A stretch of DNA of 64,000 nt from a virus. Shown here piece by piece: positions 27,736 to 51,454 of the stretch (position 1 is its first letter; every line of letters begins with the position of its first letter). Location of the stretch: IMG/VR virus record IMGVR_UViG_3300045988_076522; one strand, given 5' to 3'. The notes beneath the pieces are model-generated. The model was given only the letters and a program-made list of their open reading frames with translations. It was not told the DNA's origin and searched no databases. The translations under genes and the position numbers were made by a program.

Positions 27736-28131
27736 TCATAATACGTAATCGCAATAAGTGTCAACAAAATCCTTAGCTTCTTTTAAACCACATTTAGCAG
27801 ATTCTTTTACATGCTTAATTGCTTGCAGTTTGGAACCAGTCGATACAAACTGTTTCATCTTAAAGAAGTCTTCACATGACAAATCAATTGTATTATTCCA
27901 ACGCTTCCTGCATGCAAGCATTGCATCACTATACTCTTGAGGATGTTCTGTCCAGGTAATTTGTTGGTCTAATATAACTGTACAAGTTCCATCAAGTATA
28001 TCATACTCTCTAGATTCTACGGTGAATTTACCAGCTTCTAACACTACTATATCAGTAGGAAATGGAATCATCTCTGATGAGATTGATACTTCCTCTATTG
28101 TCTTATCATCTTTTACAAATTTTACAAACAT
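27736..28131 (-). CDS. Hypothetical protein
   Basis: 131-aa ORF. Confidence 0.45.
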   Translation of the reverse strand: MFVKFVKDDKTIEEVSISSEMIPFPTDIVVLEAGKFTVESREYDILDGTCTVILDQQITWTEHPQEYSDAMLACRKRWNNTIDLSCEDFFKMKQFVSTGSKLQAIKHVKESAKCGLKEAKDFVDTYCDYVL

Positions 28132-32197: not shown

Positions 32198-33265
32198 CTA
32201 AACTAACTTATCGAATATCATGGGCTGTATCGACATCCATAAATTTGCTAGCATTTCTCGCTCTGCGTCAGATGCTTCATCCCAATGTGATACGTACAAT
32301 TTCTCCGTTCGTTCATTCCTATAAGGAACCTTAAATGAACGGTTAATGCGTACACTGTGTGCGAATAGGTCTTTGTCGAAATCAATAGCCCTAAGCGTCT
32401 TCTGGAAATCGTTGAACTTATTATTAGGGTCATCGACATCCCTAACAGACATTCCAGAAGGAAACGGGCCGTTACCATGCCTTGTTATATAAGGACGAGT
32501 TACATAACAAGTTTGGATTTCTTTACGTATACCTGCTTTCCGCAACAGCTCGTAAGCGTTTTGTGAAGTTGTATTAGACGGAGTACAATAAGGCATTATG
32601 CCGAATCTTTGGTCAAGCAATATTCCCTGTGAACCTTCAAACACTAGGTTATCATAATTCAACAAGCAATCTTCATTAACCGTACCTGTATGTAAGAAAT
32701 AAGCATGTGCTAACCTACACCAGTTGTCTAGGTCTATCGAAGGATATTTACTAGACATGTTGTAATAGTTATCCACTATGGCATTTAGTTTCTCACGCAG
32801 TATGTAAGGATTCATACAATCTACAACTGTTAAGCTGTATCCTGCCTTAACTCGGTCCAAACAAGCTTTAAACCCTGTACCTACAGTACCATGTCGTAAG
32901 TTCTCTTCGTTATTAACTTGGGAATAGACATCGAAGGGAATTACAACTTGGCAGTGAGGGTGATACTGAACAATGGGATGAACTCCCATTTTAGCTAAGT
33001 CTGCACCCTCCAACATAGAGGTAATTGGGTCTACAGTACAGTATTCGGACCAGTACGTCGGCACTCCAAGTAAGGTTCCGCTGCCAAAGTTACTAAAGGT
33101 GTGCATCATGTCTCCATGCTTTACAGTATGTCCTACTTGATGTCCACCACTAAACCTGACCACTAACACAGACTCTCGCTTACCTATGTACTTGTTACAT
33201 AAGTTGTGAACTGTCTGTCCCTTACCTTCGTCTCCAAAGAATGTTCCTAATACAATACTAATCAT
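32198..33265 (-). CDS. Adenylosuccinate synthetase homolog (PurA/PurZ family), short form
   Basis: P-loop IVLGTFFGDEGKGQ. VVRFSGGHQVGHTV corresponds to the PurA RFQGGHNAGHTV segment. HGTVGTGFKAC corresponds to TTKRGIGP. At 355 aa it is shorter than bacterial PurA (~430 aa). Confidence 0.6.
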   Translation of the reverse strand: MISIVLGTFFGDEGKGQTVHNLCNKYIGKRESVLVVRFSGGHQVGHTVKHGDMMHTFSNFGSGTLLGVPTYWSEYCTVDPITSMLEGADLAKMGVHPIVQYHPHCQVVIPFDVYSQVNNEENLRHGTVGTGFKACLDRVKAGYSLTVVDCMNPYILREKLNAIVDNYYNMSSKYPSIDLDNWCRLAHAYFLHTGTVNEDCLLNYDNLVFEGSQGILLDQRFGIMPYCTPSNTTSQNAYELLRKAGIRKEIQTCYVTRPYITRHGNGPFPSGMSVRDVDDPNNKFNDFQKTLRAIDFDKDLFAHSVRINRSFKVPYRNERTEKLYVSHWDEASDAEREMLANLWMSIQPMIFDKLV

Positions 33266-34588: not shown

Positions 34589-34675
34589 TTACACTTACAT
34601 TTAACATGTTAAATTCAATAAGCATCTCTGTGTGGTAATTTATAATCTAACTGTAATCATCTAGGATTACAATCG

Positions 34676-34758
34676 AGCCGACTGTCAGATTCGAACTGAC
34701 GTGGAGTTTCCTCTCGTGATTACAAGTCACGTGCAATCAACCACTATGCGAAGTCGGC
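34676..34758 (-). tRNA. Type II tRNA with apparent anticodon TGT (identity uncertain)
   Basis: Acceptor GCCGACT/AGTCGGC. 3-bp D-stem. Anticodon stem CGTGA/TCACG with loop CTTGTAA. Variable hairpin GAGGAAACTC. T-arm GTCAGTTCGAATCTGAC. Confidence 0.45.
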
Positions 34759-36877: not shown

Positions 36878-36896
36878 AAACTCTTATTAGCCAGCG

Positions 36897-36984
36897 CGGA
36901 GAGTGCTGGATTCGAACCAGCGGAACCCTTTTGAGGTTCGGTCCCTTAGCAGGGGACTGGTTTAAGCCACTCACCCAACTCTCC
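36897..36984 (-). tRNA. tRNA-Ser (anticodon GCT), type II
   Basis: GGAGAGT...ACTCTCC. Anticodon stem GTCCC/GGGAC with loop CTGCTAA. Long variable arm. T-arm GCTGGTTCGAATCCAGC. Confidence 0.65.
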
Positions 36985-46462: not shown

Positions 46463-48157
46463 TTAGACCTTCACAGGCTTCTTCTGCACGCTTGCATTCT
46501 TCTTGACAACATCCTTCTCTAGAATCATCATATTAAGCAACTCTTGATTCATAGCATGCTTAAAGATGTCTCTAGTGGTTTTAGGCACCTGGAACCTCTT
46601 CTCTCCAGTAATAAATGAGGATGTTGAATTATTAAGTCCATTTACTAAGAAGCAATTTGACACTCCTGGAACCAAAGCCACATTAGGTCTTCCCTTATAT
46701 GCTAAAGGAACTCTCCAAATGATAACTTTGAATGCTCTTACAAATTCCTTACTGAAATTTGCTTTAAGCAGTCTTTGCTTAAATTCCACGAATGCTTGGT
46801 TGTTCAACTTGGTAAAATATGTATGGTTAGTAATTACCACACAGCCTCTAGGGAACTCTCCTTCATCCACACCATAATCTTCTTTCATTTTACACAGCAT
46901 TTCTGCTATATTAATAATAGAAGGATTCTGGCATAATGCTTCTTCTTTGTCAGATTTCCATTTCTCAATGACATTCTGACCTTTGAACTTACGTAGAACC
47001 ATGTTATCCTCTAACACGGCATAGGAGTTCTTGAATATTGTAGGAAGTAATTCAGAATGATATAAAGCATATGCTTTACCCAAACTGTAAGCAGATGTTT
47101 CGCTATTCTCTATCTCACCATTAGCAGAATGACTTATATCTCTTACTACCAACAACGGAGCTACTCTATTGCGTTTAGCATTATCAACAAATACATTGAA
47201 ACTTGCATTAATAGAAGTTTCCATAAATTCTGGAATCTCTTCGGCAATTTTATCCAATCCGTATGGTTTGAATAGAGTATGTAGAAATCCGCTATTAGAG
47301 GGCTTCTTACGGTTCTTCAACCAGTTCTGATACTTCTCTTTAAGACCTTGATGTTTGAGGAATTTAGAGCCTACTAGCTGTGCCAGCGCCTTTCCAGTAA
47401 CAGTGTCAAAATCGATTTCCAAGAATTTCTTTTGGCTGATTAACTGCTGCCATTGGGCTGCTTTCCCGCTATTCTTCATCTTCCTATATTTACGATAGGT
47501 TGAATAGTCTCCTTCATCCTTAGGTTTACCATAAAGGCCTTCCGCCAAGAATTTGGCTACTGTGTTACGTGCTTTTGCCTCATCTGTCTTACATGCAACA
47601 CTGGAACGAACACGAGGAAGATACTTCTTTACTAAATCACATGTCTGACCGTTGGCAAGACCTGCGAATATGACTTTCTTGAAGAAGTCCCAATCCAATC
47701 TGTGCTTAAAGCCATGGAGTTGAACATCTAAAGCCATCATAGTAATGAAATCTTTCCAGCATCCGGCTGCTGCAAAATAAGCAATGTTGGCATGGAATGT
47801 GGGTTTGTGATAGATTGCCAACCACAACATTCTCATTATACCTTCATTCTTCAAACCTTCTCCTTGCTGTGTATCAAGTTGTATAACTCCTTCCGGGGTA
47901 GTTATTCTACATTTACGAGTTATCATTCTCGTATATGCAGTAAACTTAGTACATAGTAATGGATTAGCTTTCCATAAAGGATACATATCTTTAGCCACTT
48001 GCACGTAGGTACGTGGCTGAAGACATTTCTTAAGATTAACAAACTGGTCTATGAATAACTGATTATTATCCACAAACTTAGGTTTATTCTCATCCCGCCT
48101 TTGACGTGCGGCATTAGGGTAAGGCCTCCTTGGCCTTTGTGCTCCTTTCATTTCCAT
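46463..48157 (-). CDS. Large basic protein with a C-terminal vWA/MIDAS domain (Ro60/TROVE-like or DUF2828-like architecture)
   Basis: 564 aa. Basic N-terminus (RPRRPYPNAARQRRDENKPK). A MIDAS-like DISHS motif follows a hydrophobic strand (PLLVVRDISHSANGE). The helical N-terminal two-thirds plus a C-terminal vWA is the architecture of Ro60/Rsr. Confidence 0.4.
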   Translation of the reverse strand: MEMKGAQRPRRPYPNAARQRRDENKPKFVDNNQLFIDQFVNLKKCLQPRTYVQVAKDMYPLWKANPLLCTKFTAYTRMITRKCRITTPEGVIQLDTQQGEGLKNEGIMRMLWLAIYHKPTFHANIAYFAAAGCWKDFITMMALDVQLHGFKHRLDWDFFKKVIFAGLANGQTCDLVKKYLPRVRSSVACKTDEAKARNTVAKFLAEGLYGKPKDEGDYSTYRKYRKMKNSGKAAQWQQLISQKKFLEIDFDTVTGKALAQLVGSKFLKHQGLKEKYQNWLKNRKKPSNSGFLHTLFKPYGLDKIAEEIPEFMETSINASFNVFVDNAKRNRVAPLLVVRDISHSANGEIENSETSAYSLGKAYALYHSELLPTIFKNSYAVLEDNMVLRKFKGQNVIEKWKSDKEEALCQNPSIINIAEMLCKMKEDYGVDEGEFPRGCVVITNHTYFTKLNNQAFVEFKQRLLKANFSKEFVRAFKVIIWRVPLAYKGRPNVALVPGVSNCFLVNGLNNSTSSFITGEKRFQVPKTTRDIFKHAMNQELLNMMILEKDVVKKNASVQKKPVKV

Positions 48158-48537
48158 CTCTTTGTTTAAATTTATTGTTATGAGAGTCTTTCTTTATTCT
48201 AAACAATAAACAAGCGGCATTACGGCAATCGGACATACGTTAACCCGCTCGCCACTTACAGACCGTAATGCACACTTGACCAGGCAGGAAAGAGGTTTGC
48301 TTGGTGACCTATCTGCATGCTGATTATATAATACAGACCGTGTAGATTCTCTCTTACACAATATCTATAGTAGATTTGCACTACTGTTTTCTGATGCTTA
48401 ATCAGGTGAACTCCTACTGTTCGAATAGATACAGGTTTCAACTCTTTGATATAGCCTTTAAGTCATAGACATACTCCGGAATATGTCTACTGGTTCTTCA
48501 GACCAAGTTTTGCTACCACCATTCGTCAATAGTGGAT

Positions 48538-49753: not shown

Positions 49754-50035
49754 TTACTCTTTATATATTCTAATTCGAGATTTATGCAGATGTACACGCA
49801 TTCGTTTAACCTCGGACAGAATCCAATTACGTCTGCATTGATGTAACCATGCAATTACATCTTCGTCAAATAATAATTCTTGACCACAGTAGTATGTGCC
49901 ACTGTAGTAAGTATCAAGCTTTGGTCTTAATATGTCATGAGGACTATCAGTAACTATGCATTGATAATCCTCACCTCTTATTAATTTCAGCTTCTTTGAC
50001 TCCTTGCGAAGTTTCTTTAATAACCTTGCTTTCAT
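49754..50035 (-). CDS. Hypothetical basic protein
   Basis: 93-aa ORF. Confidence 0.4.
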   Translation of the reverse strand: MKARLLKKLRKESKKLKLIRGEDYQCIVTDSPHDILRPKLDTYYSGTYYCGQELLFDEDVIAWLHQCRRNWILSEVKRMRVHLHKSRIRIYKE

Positions 50036-50385
50036 TTTAATAGTTCCAATTTAGCTACGTCCTTATCATACCATATCCCAATCCAGAAGTTGTCTACAAA
50101 GTTCCTATGATTCATGATAGTATAATTAAGCCTTAAGACATCACTAGATATAAGATAGTAATTCTTCCTATCAGTAGCCTCCAATGTTTCTTTGAGCACT
50201 GCGTGCTTGCCAATAATTTGAATATTCCTTGTAATAGCGAATGGTAATGAAATCGCTGCCCCAACTGTTGCTATCGAGAATACAATCTCAACTGCCACTG
50301 CAACTTCTCTTAGGTCTAAAGACCCTATTCGTGAAACACATACACAAATAAGTAAAACAATCACTGCAATAATAAATAATCCCAT
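50032..50385 (-). CDS. Membrane protein
   Basis: N-terminal TM GLFIIAVIVLLICVCV and a second hydrophobic segment. Confidence 0.45.
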   Translation of the reverse strand: MGLFIIAVIVLLICVCVSRIGSLDLREVAVAVEIVFSIATVGAAISLPFAITRNIQIIGKHAVLKETLEATDRKNYYLISSDVLRLNYTIMNHRNFVDNFWIGIWYDKDVAKLELLK

Positions 50386-50412
50386 AAAATTGATATTTAA
50401 ACGTTAATAATA

Positions 50413-50966
50413 GTGGACCTAGGCGGAGTCGAACCGCCGTCCAAACAACCCTCATTAATAAGATTACGTGTGTCTCTATTTTATTACATCAGCTGTTGAG
50501 TTCAGCATGTAGGTAGTTTTACTAGTCTTATCTTGGAACCAGGTAATTAGGCTGCAATAGCCAAACCAGTACACCAAAAGCTAATTTACAAACTACCAAA
50601 CTTAAAGGTTCAGAAGCTGACGCTTCCAAACCTGGGCTGACCGAAGTCGCTCTTCCACCACTCCATTTACGTTGGAGAACGTTTCTATTTGTAACCCATA
50701 GATAGGTAGTGGAGATTTCAGCTTTACTAACCTTTGGCTTTCAAGTTAAGTGGGCTGCTCTATACGCTTCTTCCCACACCTCTTCTGTTTCTAGGTCTCT
50801 CCAATTAACCCGACTTAGAGCTAAATTAATAGATAAGCCAGCAGCTTAGGCTGCCATTCTTACTTCAGTGTTTCCACTTAAATTGCTGTATCATTATTAA
50901 AGAGTTGGTACGAACTCTACACGTCTTACTAACTTGTAATCGCCTGTCAAAACCAAATCTAGGCCC
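50413..50966 (-). ncRNA. ssrA: tmRNA-like gene (ssrA-like), about 550 nt
   Basis: Minus-strand 5' end GGGCCTAGATTTGGTTTTGACAGG matches the tmRNA 5' consensus GGGGCUGAUUCUGGAUUCGACGGG. The 3' end GGACGGCGGTTCGACTCCGCCTAGGTCCA matches GGACGGGGGUUCAAAUCCCCC-acceptor. The 5' and 3' ends pair (GGGCCTA/TAGGTCC). No ORF longer than 60 aa occurs in the 700 bp. A possible tag frame is ...GNTEVRMAA-TAA. Confidence 0.5.
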
Positions 50967-51100
50967 ATAGAACGGCATGATTATCCTCTCATGCCAGGAG
51001 TCTCATTTAAAATAATGAATATAGCAGCCAGTATCCTCCTGTGCCACATTAAGTGGCGTACCCATTATGGACTTGGCAGCTTACGAGTTATTTGTTCCAT

Positions 51101-51454
51101 TTAAAATGGTAAGTTTCCTTCATGTTTCATCCAACTATAAACTACAATTTCATAATCTGGGAAATCGTTGGCAAGTTTAATACAACTGTCAAACGATAAC
51201 TCTGTTATGCATATAAGAGGGTAATCATTGTCAAGCCATTCTCTAATTACATCCTTATCAGGAATATGCTCGTCCAATGACCATTTAAGCTCACGTTCAA
51301 GTCTTTCACGTATCGTATTTAATTTAATATGGTCATGTGTTCCATATATAACATTTAATATGTAATACAATAAATGGCTATTGAACTTATCAACATCGCT
51401 AATAAGAATATGCCTCTTGGCATTCCTTAAAGAATTAACTGCATTCTGATTCAT
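51101..51454 (-). CDS. Hypothetical protein
   Basis: 117-aa ORF. Confidence 0.45.
   Translation of the reverse strand: MNQNAVNSLRNAKRHILISDVDKFNSHLLYYILNVIYGTHDHIKLNTIRERLERELKWSLDEHIPDKDVIREWLDNDYPLICITELSFDSCIKLANDFPDYEIVVYSWMKHEGNLPF

What the first reader, a model, noticed from the sequence alone, without database searches (positions are those of the whole stretch)
50413..50966. Phage-encoded tmRNA-like gene in a 700-bp ORF-free stretch
The 3' end of the region folds into a tRNA-like T-arm plus acceptor with no 5' partner within 90 nt. About 550 nt upstream on the minus strand, GGGCCTA pairs with the 3' acceptor TAGGTCC. The following sequence GATTTGGTTTTGACAGG closely resembles the universal tmRNA 5' element AUUCUGGAUUCGACGGG. 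The 3' end resembles GGACGGGGGUUC...CCACCA of tmRNA. A short frame, (G)NTEVRMAA-TAA, lies about 95-120 nt from the 5' end, where tag ORFs normally sit. It is atypical because it lacks the ALAA ending. The gene would be long for a tmRNA (about 550 nt versus 350-450).
Basis: seen in the sequence. Interest (0 to 1): 0.7.

Follow-up and report, generated by a model that had tools for sequence, protein, structure and literature searches.

The report
Extra-long tmRNA gene in gut phage
The flagged stretch is a genuine, conserved ribosome-rescue RNA (tmRNA) gene in a large uncultivated gut phage; phage tmRNAs are already known, but this one is about 50% longer than usual and the standard detection program misses it.

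Summary
The observation and the interpretation both hold. Window 50414-50966 (minus strand) matches the Rfam tmRNA model end to end at 83.7 bits (threshold 47, E 5e-31).

It has:
- a 7-bp acceptor stem with the G3:U70 alanine identity pair
- a T arm
- a long helix 2
- a PK1 hairpin
- a 9-codon tag frame, GGA..UAA = GNTEVRMAA, placed 5 nt after a UA and ending in the loop of helix 5

About 40 related loci carry the same long gene (515-601 nt), always inside phage tRNA arrays. Most are IMG/VR viral contigs of 93-270 kb; two are human-faecal GenBank records and one is a MAG contig.

Stems covary: 8 core pairs and 14 central pairs change on both sides. Tags differ by whole codons and synonymous changes but keep R-M-A-A.

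The extra ~180 nt are additional covarying hairpins and pseudoknots in the pseudoknot domain, and these modules are shuffled between alleles. ARAGORN misses every copy of 518 nt or more.

No SmpB or CCA-adding enzyme is encoded in the 64 kb, and no CCA is encoded in the tmRNA or in 27 of the 28 minus-strand tRNA genes. The RNA therefore presumably uses host factors.

Phage tmRNAs are well documented, so this is a new member of a known kind. Interest is modest.

The parts
50414..50966 (-). tmRNA (ssrA) gene, 553 nt from G1 to the discriminator A. The 3' CCA is not encoded; the DNA reads A-CUA.
   Evidence: Rfam RF00023 at 83.7 bits, E 5e-31, full model, hit at 50411-50966. MFE fold. Homologues.
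50960..50966 (-). Acceptor stem 5' strand, GGGCCUA.
   Evidence: Pairs with 50415-50421. The six pairs that could be scored are invariant in 10 of 10 sequences, including G3:U70. The seventh pair (A7-U546) was left out because of an alignment gap.
50415..50421 (-). Acceptor stem 3' strand, UAGGUCC, followed by discriminator A at 50414.
50422..50438 (-). T arm: 5-bp stem GGCGG/CCGCC with 7-nt loop UUCGACU.
   Evidence: 100% of cells paired. Three of five pairs change on both sides across relatives: GGCGG, ACGGG, GAGGG, CUGGG.
50919..50948 (-). Helix 2, 5' strand (tmRNA positions 19-48).
   Evidence: Pairs with 50439-50471. Helices 2a-d are 95-96% paired, with 3 compensatory pairs in 2c and a 3-nt bulge between 2c and 2d.
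50439..50471 (-). Helix 2, 3' strand (tmRNA positions 496-528).
50888..50918 (-). PK1 region. Stem 1 is AGAGUU/AACUCU (49-54/61-66). Candidate stem 2 is GUA/UAC (56-58/77-79).
   Evidence: Stem 1 appears in the MFE fold and is 93.5% paired. Stem 2 rests on one compensatory change, GUA/UAC to GCA/UGC, in L033 and L006. It is only 60% paired overall and is degenerate in the L001 clade.
50846..50875 (-). Tag reading frame GGA AAC ACU GAA GUA AGA AUG GCA GCC UAA. The predicted tag is (A)GNTEVRMAA.
   Evidence: Resume codon at position 92, preceded by UAAGU with U at -5 and A at -4. Six tag variants in relatives keep the frame and the R-M-A-A end. Matches the Rfam alignment.
50839..50856 (-). Helix 5 hairpin with the UAA stop codon in its loop.
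   Evidence: (97% paired).
50472..50838 (-). Expanded pseudoknot domain (positions 129-495, 367 nt). It consists of hairpins and pseudoknots that replace and extend PK2-PK4.
   Evidence: 90.4% of cells paired against 33-48% for slid controls. 14 pairs change on both sides; 0 of 500 shuffles reach this. Module variants are reshuffled between alleles.
50661..50681 (-). Conserved H-type pseudoknot (positions 286-306): CGUU/AACG plus CUCC/GGAG. It is also present in the 374-nt relative.
   Evidence: Compensatory changes in both stems (L017 CUUU/AAAG and CUUC/GAAG; L012 CCUACUU/AAGUAGG)..
50606..50633 (-). 12-bp hairpin insertion found only in the window, L021 and L024.
50512..50597 (-). Long helix (370-377/448-455 plus 383-386/442-445) with a variable apical domain.
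   Evidence: 95% and 88% paired, with compensatory changes.
50974..50995 (-). 5' leader hairpin GGCAUGA-GAGGAUAA-UCAUGCC, 7 nt upstream of the mature 5' end.
   Evidence: Read directly from the sequence. L009 has GGCACGA/UCGUGCC, a compensatory change. Other clades have an unrelated hairpin at the same place. Its role is unknown; it could be a processing signal or a terminator.
51018..51047 (-). Sigma-70-like promoter match (GTGGCA, 18 nt, TG-TATATT) about 50 nt upstream of the gene.
   Evidence: This is a consensus match only, and the number of matches is not above the shuffled expectation. The L001 and L004 clades have TATAAT boxes at a similar distance.

Best explanation
This is a functional one-piece tmRNA (ssrA) gene carried by a large uncultivated phage.

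What is shown:
- It is a full-length tmRNA homologue with a tRNA-like domain bearing the alanine identity pair G3:U70 and discriminator A.
- It has a T arm, helix 2, a PK1 hairpin, a tag reading frame and helix 5.
- All of these are kept by selection in about 40 related loci.

What is inferred:
- The RNA is transcribed inside the phage's tRNA region.
- It is cut at G1 by RNase P and trimmed after the discriminator.
- A CCA-adding enzyme supplies the 3' CCA, because no CCA is encoded. No such enzyme was found in the window, so it is presumably the host's.
- Host AlaRS charges it with alanine, and host SmpB and EF-Tu deliver it to stalled ribosomes.
- The nascent chain is passed to alanine, translation resumes at GGA (position 92), and it stops at UAA after adding (A)GNTEVRMAA.

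The benefit to the phage would be to keep ribosomes free during infection, when mRNA decay or host nucleases create non-stop messages. The tag would set the fate of the rescued peptides.

The extra ~180 nt are additional structured modules in the pseudoknot domain. Published comparative work finds that domain to be variable and largely dispensable for the core reaction.
For: - Rfam RF00023 scores 83.7 bits against a threshold of 47, covering the full model. All 10 long-form relatives that were tested also pass, at 56-91 bits.
- Core structure: 94.4% of cells paired against 37-45% for slid controls. 8 pairs change on both sides, with 0 of 500 shuffles reaching this. G3:U70 is invariant.
- Central domain: 90.4% paired and 14 compensatory pairs.
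- Tags: GNTEVRMAA, AEIAPVRMAA, ATYSEVRMAA (ending GCC-UAA or GCG-UGA), AAYSEVRMAA, AEIDYNRMAA and ASRRRPVRLVA. They differ by whole codons and by synonymous changes. All follow U(-5)A(-4), and resume codons lie at positions 84-92.
- The gene always lies in a tRNA array. In some clades it sits a few nt from the next tRNA.
- Of the window's 28 minus-strand tRNA genes, 27 lack an encoded CCA, so the tmRNA shares their maturation route.
- A glycine resume codon, a 2-6-nt bulge between helices 2c and 2d, and a variable number of pseudoknots are all described for bacterial tmRNAs (PMC1168896).
Against: - There are no expression, charging or tagging data.
- No SmpB was found among 80 ORFs of the window. 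Dependence on host SmpB is assumed, and the host is unknown.
- The tag ends R-M-A-A rather than the usual A-L-A-A, so recognition by host proteases is uncertain.
- PK1 stem 2 is weak (3 bp) and degenerate in one clade.
- The nucleotides encoding VRMAA also form helix 5. Their conservation therefore cannot be assigned to the peptide alone.
Confidence: 0.8

Rival explanations
1. The RNA is a decoy that titrates host SmpB or AlaRS and so blocks host trans-translation, rather than rescuing ribosomes. This has been proposed for tRNA-like-domain-only molecules such as the one in mycobacteriophage DS6A.
For: - TLD-only molecules exist in phages and can inhibit tmRNA (PMC4131195).
- One such 81-nt element turned up in an unrelated viral contig, L029.
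- The tag lacks the canonical ALAA end.
Against: A decoy needs only the tRNA-like domain. Here the tag frame is kept open across six variants that differ by whole codons, with synonymous changes and a stop codon held in the helix 5 loop. The whole 370-nt body is kept structured.
Confidence: 0.07
2. It is a decaying relic: a host ssrA gene captured by the phage, no longer functional and bloated by insertions.
For: - The length is unusual.
- The Rfam alignment treats about 290 nt as insertions, with low posterior probability in the middle.
- The ARAGORN heuristics fail.
Against: - The gene is conserved in about 40 related loci, mostly viral contigs.
- Compensatory changes occur in 22 pairs.
- G3:U70, the T loop and the GG of the D-loop analogue are invariant.
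- The tag frame is intact in every copy.
- The inserted segments themselves form covarying helices.
Confidence: 0.05
3. It is an integration-site remnant. Temperate phages that integrate into host ssrA carry a copy of its 3' end.
For: ssrA is a common integration target (PMC9004378 discusses this).
Against: - The gene is full length, with its own 5' half and tag, not a 3' fragment.
- It lies mid-contig inside a tRNA array in every relative.
- No integrase domain appeared in the Pfam scans of 80 ORFs.
- The tag and body differ from the one bacterial tmRNA recovered with the same 3' motif (L067, tag GEKSYALAA).
Confidence: 0.02
4. It works as a tmRNA, but the tag has been retuned. Its R-M-A-A end (Arg invariant at -4) sends rescued peptides to a different fate than the host tag would, for example escape from ClpXP or delivery to another protease. 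The extra modules might bind a phage factor.
For: - R at -4 and the terminal A are invariant in all six tag variants, including the 374-nt relative.
- The expanded modules are conserved and covary.
Against: tmRNA tags and pseudoknot content vary widely among bacteria without any known change of mechanism (PMC1168896). Conservation of the tag end overlaps the constraint from helix 5.
Confidence: 0.15

Closest known systems
Bacterial one-piece tmRNA (SsrA; Rfam RF00023), e.g. E. coli and Bacillus
   Same: - Full-length match to the covariance model.
- Acceptor stem with G3:U70 and a T arm.
- Helix 2 with a bulge between 2c and 2d.
- PK1 hairpin.
- Resume codon near position 90 after a UA at -5/-4.
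- Stop codon in the loop of helix 5.
- Tag ending in two alanines.
- A glycine resume codon, as in B. anthracis (PMC1168896).
   Different: - 553 nt against a 374-position consensus.
- The PK2-PK4 region is replaced by a 367-nt array of hairpins and pseudoknots.
- The tag ends RMAA, not ALAA.
- CCA is not encoded.
- It sits in a phage tRNA array, with no smpB found in the 64 kb.
Phage-encoded tmRNAs: mycobacteriophage Bxz1 group, Bacillus phage G (PMC4131195), huge phages (PMC7162821), and 402 of 18,146 phage genomes by ARAGORN (PMC9004378)
   Same: A complete ssrA gene carried by a large phage together with many tRNA genes. The same presumed role in keeping host ribosomes working.
   Different: - This lineage is not annotated in any record found. 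The two GenBank hits are unannotated.
- ARAGORN, the tool used in those surveys, cannot see copies of 518 nt or more.
- SmpB was reported in some huge phages but was not found here.
374-nt tmRNA of related viral contigs L017 and L028
   Same: - Same acceptor stem.
- The 5' motif UUGGUUUUGACAG is identical.
- Same helix 2 architecture, with compensatory changes.
- Same conserved pseudoknot followed by GUGGUGGA.
- The tag ends R-L-V-A, with the same Arg.
   Different: It lacks the inserted modules: positions ~221-285, the hairpins after the conserved pseudoknot, and the penultimate hairpin. ARAGORN detects it.
Two-piece (permuted) phage tmRNA, e.g. OM43 phage Melnitz (PMC9004378)
   Same: A phage-borne ssrA.
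   Different: The window gene is one-piece. The permuted model RF04321 scores only 17 bits against a threshold of 47.

Membership tests
tmRNA (Rfam RF00023) | Score at or above the curated gathering threshold of the covariance model, over the full model | tested here: met
   83.7 bits against 47, model positions 1-374, E 5.4e-31.
tmRNA (Rfam RF00023) | 7-bp acceptor stem with the G3:U70 alanine identity pair and discriminator A | tested here: met
   GGGCCUA/UAGGUCC plus A. G3:U is invariant in 10 of 10 sequences.
tmRNA (Rfam RF00023) | T arm (5 bp, 7-nt loop UUCRANY) and a D-loop analogue with GG, with no anticodon arm | tested here: met
   Loop UUCGACU. The stem is 100% paired with 3 compensatory pairs. 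G13 and G14 are invariant in 31 sequences.
tmRNA (Rfam RF00023) | Long helix 2 joining the tRNA-like domain to the body | tested here: met
   Helices 2a-d are 95-96% paired, with 3 compensatory pairs. Recovered by the unconstrained fold.
tmRNA (Rfam RF00023) | Pseudoknot PK1 just upstream of the tag frame | tested here: inconclusive
   Stem 1 is clear. Stem 2 is only 3 bp and 60% paired, supported by one compensatory change in L033 and L006, and degenerate in the L001 clade.
tmRNA (Rfam RF00023) | Short tag reading frame without a start codon: resume codon near position 90 after U(-5)A(-4), and an in-frame stop in or near helix 5 | tested here: met
   GGA at position 92 after UAAGU, UAA in the helix 5 loop. 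The frame is kept in six variants.
tmRNA (Rfam RF00023) | Tag ending in the usual A-L-A-A degron (typical of the family, not strictly defining) | tested here: not met
   The tag ends R-M-A-A (R-L-V-A in L017). Only the terminal A-A, or A, is kept.
tmRNA (Rfam RF00023) | Pseudoknots PK2-PK4 between helix 5 and helix 2 | tested here: inconclusive
   One H-type pseudoknot (286-306) and a second (260-283) have covariation support. The rest is an enlarged set of hairpins that could not be mapped one-to-one onto PK2-PK4.
tmRNA (Rfam RF00023) | Encoded or added 3' CCA, and aminoacylation with alanine | not testable with these tools
   CCA is not encoded (A-CUA). The same holds for 27 of the 28 minus-strand tRNA genes. 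Addition of CCA and charging need experiments.
tmRNA (Rfam RF00023) | SmpB partner protein | tested here: inconclusive
   No SmpB (PF01668) among 80 ORFs of the 64-kb window, and no phmmer hit with E. coli SmpB written from memory. The rest of the phage genome and the host could not be searched.
Two-piece permuted tmRNA (RF04321) | Score at or above the gathering threshold; tRNA-like and mRNA-like parts in permuted order | tested here: not met
   17 and 12.5 bits against 47. The gene is co-linear.
TLD-only mini-tmRNA (mycobacteriophage DS6A type) | tRNA-like domain with no mRNA-like domain | tested here: not met
   The window gene has a conserved tag frame and a 370-nt body.

The most novel reading that the evidence does not exclude
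The lineage-specific additions are adaptive, not neutral. On this reading the ~180 nt of recombining structured modules and the invariant Arg at -4 of the tag (R-M-A-A) retune trans-translation for the phage. Rescued peptides might be spared from, or redirected away from, host ClpXP-type proteolysis. Alternatively the modules might recruit a phage factor or respond to host state.
Probability: 0.12. Interest if true: 0.55.

Novelty: new member of a known kind. Interest (0 to 1): 0.3.

Why it matters
- It adds a widespread lineage of large phages, including human-faecal ones, to the list of phages that carry their own ribosome-rescue RNA.
- It exposes a blind spot in annotation. ARAGORN-based pipelines, used in phage and virome surveys (PMC7162821, PMC9004378, PMC12291355, PMC13503771), miss every copy of 518 nt or more and mis-call the tag of the 515-nt copies. 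Published frequencies of phage tmRNA are therefore underestimates.
- The set of natural alleles, with swapped pseudoknot modules and six tag variants, is ready-made material for asking what the pseudoknot domain and the tag sequence contribute.
- It does not change the current understanding of trans-translation.

Tried and rejected
- **ARAGORN** on the window found no tmRNA. One search shows the reason is length: only the 374-nt and 515-nt relatives are detected.
- **GenBank phages:** megablast and blastn against 50,697 phage records gave only two unannotated faecal scaffolds, so no cultured relative exists in that collection.
- **Another RNA inside the insert:** I looked for an intron, riboswitch or other family in the inserted region. 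Nothing but tmRNA reached E below 0.3.
- **A second conserved ORF in the body:** none found. The frame ARAGORN called in L003 (VQQKDD...) is not conserved.
- **SmpB and a CCA-adding enzyme in the window:** none found.
- **Link to stop-codon recoding:** the window has a tRNA(CUA), but TAG ends 10 of 64 ORFs of 100 aa or more. No suppressor tRNA lies in the flanks of 52 loci scanned, mostly relatives. The link was dropped.
- **Host assignment:**
  - One long-form copy lies in a contig binned as an uncultured Clostridium MAG.
  - The 5' and 3' ends of the tRNA-like domain resemble the tmRNA of a Prevotella MAG.
  - The hints conflict, so the host is left open.
  - Most other genome hits to the 3' motif were Patescibacteria MAGs with no ARAGORN tmRNA call. 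They were not pursued.
- **Two competing long-range pairings for UCUCC (252-256)**, with GGAGA (165-169) or within UCCAC/GUGGA. The first is 98% paired but almost invariant, so it is neither proven nor excluded. The second was not counted separately.
- **Neighbouring ORFs** 50032-50385 and 51101-51454 have no Pfam or PHROG match.

Full report
**1. What is there**

- GGGCCUA at 50966-50960
- the motif GAUUUGGUUUUGACAGG directly after it
- a short frame GGA AAC ACU GAA GUA AGA AUG GCA GCC UAA at 50875-50846
- at the far end, GGACGGCGGUUCGACUCCGCCUAGGUCCA-CUA

The region lies in a 715-nt gap between two ORFs that end at 50385 and start at 51101. The gap holds only two short unsupported ORFs.

A scan of the whole window against Rfam at curated thresholds gives a full-length tmRNA match (RF00023) at 50411-50966 on the minus strand. 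It scores 83.7 bits against a gathering score of 47, with E 5.4e-31. ARAGORN finds 28 tRNA genes on the same strand, plus one overlapping plus-strand call, but no tmRNA.

An unconstrained minimum-free-energy fold of the 553 nt recovers, without any guidance:
- the 7-bp acceptor stem
- the T arm
- helix 2 in three sections with a 3-nt bulge
- the PK1 hairpin
- helix 5, with the stop codon in its loop

The fold has z = -2.4, and none of 100 shuffles folds as well.

**2. The genome is a phage**

Large ORFs in the window match PHROG and Pfam families for:
- a DnaB-like helicase
- a primase
- a helicase
- exonuclease VIII
- a Sak4-like annealing protein
- a PurZ-like adenylosuccinate synthetase

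GenBank phages hold only two relatives of the tmRNA region. Both are unannotated scaffolds from human faeces in Mexico, MT837398 and MT836666.

A pattern taken from the 3' end of the gene finds 52 IMG/VR viral contigs of 20-270 kb, many of them 183-192 kb.
- A full-length gene could be read in 39 loci, giving 31 distinct sequences.
- Two further loci, L006 and L033, were recovered with Rfam.
- One more copy lies in a contig binned as an uncultured Clostridium MAG.

All but the 374-nt pair L017/L028 are 515-601 nt long. All lie within tRNA arrays. In some clades the next tRNA starts a few nucleotides after the tmRNA. All eleven relatives tested that belong to this family pass the Rfam threshold, at 56-93 bits.

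**3. It is kept by selection**

*Core.* I aligned the 5' part (positions 1-133) joined to the 3' part (441-556) for ten representative sequences.
- The proposed structure is paired in 94.4% of cells, against 37-45% when partners are slid by 1-3 columns.
- Eight pairs change on both sides. None of 500 shuffles reaches that number.
- The T stem alone occurs as GGCGG, ACGGG, GAGGG and CUGGG, each with its complement.
- G3:U70 is invariant.

*Central region.* On the 31-sequence alignment, twelve helices are 90.4% paired, against 33-48% for slid controls. Fourteen pairs change on both sides.

*Tag frame.* It exists in six versions:

| Tag | Note |
|---|---|
| GNTEVRMAA | window clade |
| AEIAPVRMAA | |
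| ATYSEVRMAA | ends either GCC-UAA or GCG-UGA |
| AAYSEVRMAA | |
| AEIDYNRMAA | |
| ASRRRPVRLVA | 374-nt relative L017 |

The versions differ by whole codons and include synonymous changes. Every one starts five nucleotides after a UA, at positions 84-92. That placement matches the E. coli arrangement UAGUC-GCA (my knowledge of the upstream determinants) and the Rfam alignment. A relic or a pure decoy would not keep an open frame in this way.

**4. What the extra length is**

The Rfam alignment treats about 290 nt of the middle as insertions. No other Rfam family is hidden there.

Comparison with the 374-nt relative and between clades shows a chain of modules after helix 5:
- a covarying hairpin after helix 5 (129-154)
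- a conserved hairpin GGGU/ACCU, whose loop GGAGA can pair with UCUCC about 85 nt downstream
- a variable hairpin between the conserved GAGGU and UUAA
- a small triloop hairpin
- a pseudoknot at 260-283
- a conserved H-type pseudoknot at 286-306, also present in the short relative, with compensatory changes in both stems
- a UUCG hairpin
- a 12-bp hairpin found only in the window, L021 and L024
- a long helix (370-455) with a variable tip
- a last hairpin (456-481)

Different variants of these modules occur in different combinations. For example, the same apical module occurs with both types of 5' half. The alleles therefore recombine.

I could not map these modules one-to-one onto PK2-PK4. 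Published comparative work states that the number and size of tmRNA pseudoknots vary and that they are largely interchangeable (PMC1168896). The expansion is therefore an extreme of a known kind of variation.

**5. How it most likely works**

*Shown:* the RNA has all the determinants known to be needed. These are G3:U70 with discriminator A for AlaRS, a 12-bp acceptor-plus-T helix for EF-Tu, the T loop and the GG of the D-loop analogue, helix 2, a resume codon in the standard place, and a stop codon.

*Inferred:*
- Transcription starts from a sigma-70-like promoter about 50 nt upstream. This is a consensus match only. The L001 and L004 clades have TATAAT boxes at a similar distance.
- The leader contains a hairpin that is conserved in position and covaries between the window and L009.
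- RNase P cuts at G1.
- The 3' end is trimmed after A553 and CCA is added. CCA is absent here and in 27 of the 28 minus-strand tRNA genes.
- No CCA-adding enzyme or SmpB is encoded among the 80 ORFs scanned. The phage therefore appears to rely on host enzymes, at least as far as this 64 kb shows.
- The product would rescue stalled ribosomes and add (A)GNTEVRMAA.

Whether R-M-A-A is a degradation signal is unknown. The last two alanines of the canonical tag are kept, but Leu is replaced by Met, and the Ala before it by an invariant Arg.

**6. Rivals**

- *SmpB-titrating decoy.* This has been proposed for TLD-only phage molecules (PMC4131195), and one such 81-nt element turned up in L029. It does not explain the conserved frame and body.
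- *Decaying captured gene.* This is contradicted by 22 compensatory pairs and an intact frame in every copy.
- *Integration-site remnant.* This is excluded by the full-length match, the mid-array position and the absence of an integrase.
- *Retuned tag or added function for the extra modules.* This cannot be excluded and is the most novel reading left. I give it about 0.12.

**7. Comparison with what is known**

Phage ssrA genes have been listed since the Bxz1-group mycobacteriophages and Bacillus phage G (PMC4131195). tmRNA and SmpB were reported in huge phages (PMC7162821). An ARAGORN survey found tmRNA in 402 of 18,146 phage genomes (PMC9004378). The window gene belongs to this kind and meets the family's defining tests.

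What is new:
- the lineage is unannotated
- the length is unusual, 553 nt against a 374-position consensus
- the tag ends RMAA
- the alleles are mosaic

A practical point follows. ARAGORN detected only the 374-nt and 515-nt relatives, the latter with a wrong tag, and none of the 27 distinct sequences of 518 nt or more. Virome catalogues that rely on ARAGORN (PMC12291355, PMC13503771) will not report this family.

**8. Host**

The host is undetermined. One copy sits in a contig binned with an uncultured Clostridium MAG, and the promoter-like boxes are of the TATAAT type. Against that, the ends of the tRNA-like domain are nearly identical to those of a tmRNA in a Prevotella MAG whose tag is GEKSYALAA. 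These hints conflict.

**9. Verdict**

This is a real, conserved, very probably functional phage tmRNA. It is a new member of a known kind, and interest is modest at 0.3.

Noticed in passing
window 48428-48535 (-); also L009 3252-3359, L033 324-430, L006 147-254: A RAGATH-34 RNA (Rfam RF03103, 118-121 bits against a threshold of 60.7) lies about 1.9 kb downstream of the tmRNA, and the spacing is the same in three relatives. It is about 270 nt from the start of a 564-aa ORF (46463-48157) whose only match is phrog_850 'RNA-binding protein'. That ORF has no PDB or Pfam hit. This may be an RNA-protein pair of unknown function.
   Followed up: partly
window 44072-44144 (-): An amber-suppressor tRNA (anticodon CUA; ARAGORN labels it 'Pyl'; Rfam tRNA 62.7 bits). 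Yet TAG ends 10 of 64 ORFs of 100 aa or more in this window. No suppressor tRNA was found in the flanks of 52 loci scanned (mostly relatives). Late-gene recoding elsewhere in the genome was not testable.
   Followed up: partly
window 17991-51605 (-): 28 tRNA genes on one strand, spread among small ORFs. 27 of them do not encode the 3' CCA; the one apparent CCA, in tRNA-Arg(gcg), looks coincidental. The tRNA-Thr(UGU) at 34675-34758 is 84 nt, long for a class I tRNA. ARAGORN also makes a probably false plus-strand tRNA-Arg call at 36881-36957, overlapping tRNA-Ser.
   Followed up: partly
window 32198-33265 (-): An adenylosuccinate-synthetase homologue matches phrog_1211, the PurZ family (annotated '2-aminooxy adenylosuccinate synthetase'), at E 1.6e-46, and Pfam Adenylsucc_synt at E 9e-35. 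The phage may replace adenine with 2-aminoadenine in its DNA.
   Followed up: no
window 27736-28131 (-): A 131-aa ORF with a marginal match to the ribosomal protein L7/L12 C-terminal domain (Pfam PF00542, 27.0 bits against a cutoff of 25.9, 28 residues aligned). If real, it is another translation-related gene in the tRNA region.
   Followed up: partly
alignment A2 (window and L001-L054 tmRNA genes): The tmRNA alleles are mosaics. Variants of the tag, the hairpin after helix 5, the central modules and the tip of the long helix occur in different combinations with the two types of tRNA-like domain. This indicates recombination within the gene among co-circulating phages.
   Followed up: partly
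window 50974-50995 (-) and the same position in relatives: Every clade has a hairpin ending 5-8 nt before the mature 5' end of the tmRNA. The sequences are unrelated between clades, and there is a compensatory change between the window and L009. It could be a processing signal or the terminator of the upstream gene.
   Followed up: partly
L029 342-422 (-); L010, L041, L042; L007, L022: Other viral contigs caught by the same 3' motif carry other tmRNA types:
- an 81-nt tRNA-like-domain-only element (L029), like mycobacteriophage DS6A
- three permuted two-piece tmRNAs (L010, L041, L042)
- two ordinary ones of 365 nt (L007) and 308 nt (L022), with ARAGORN tags EETEELELCCA and ANQQKALAA
   Followed up: partly
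L055-L080 (genome contigs): Among 185,579 species genomes, the 3' motif GGAC...GGTTCGA.TCC...TAGGTCCA occurs in only 26. Most are Patescibacteria MAGs. ARAGORN calls no tmRNA in those loci, and what carries the motif there was not examined.
   Followed up: no
window 37072-39033 (-) and other ORFs: A 653-aa SPFH/Band 7 protein sits within the tRNA region. Single Pfam hits to Ferritin, Bactofilin and TerB also occur among the window's ORFs, at coordinates that were not determined.
   Followed up: no
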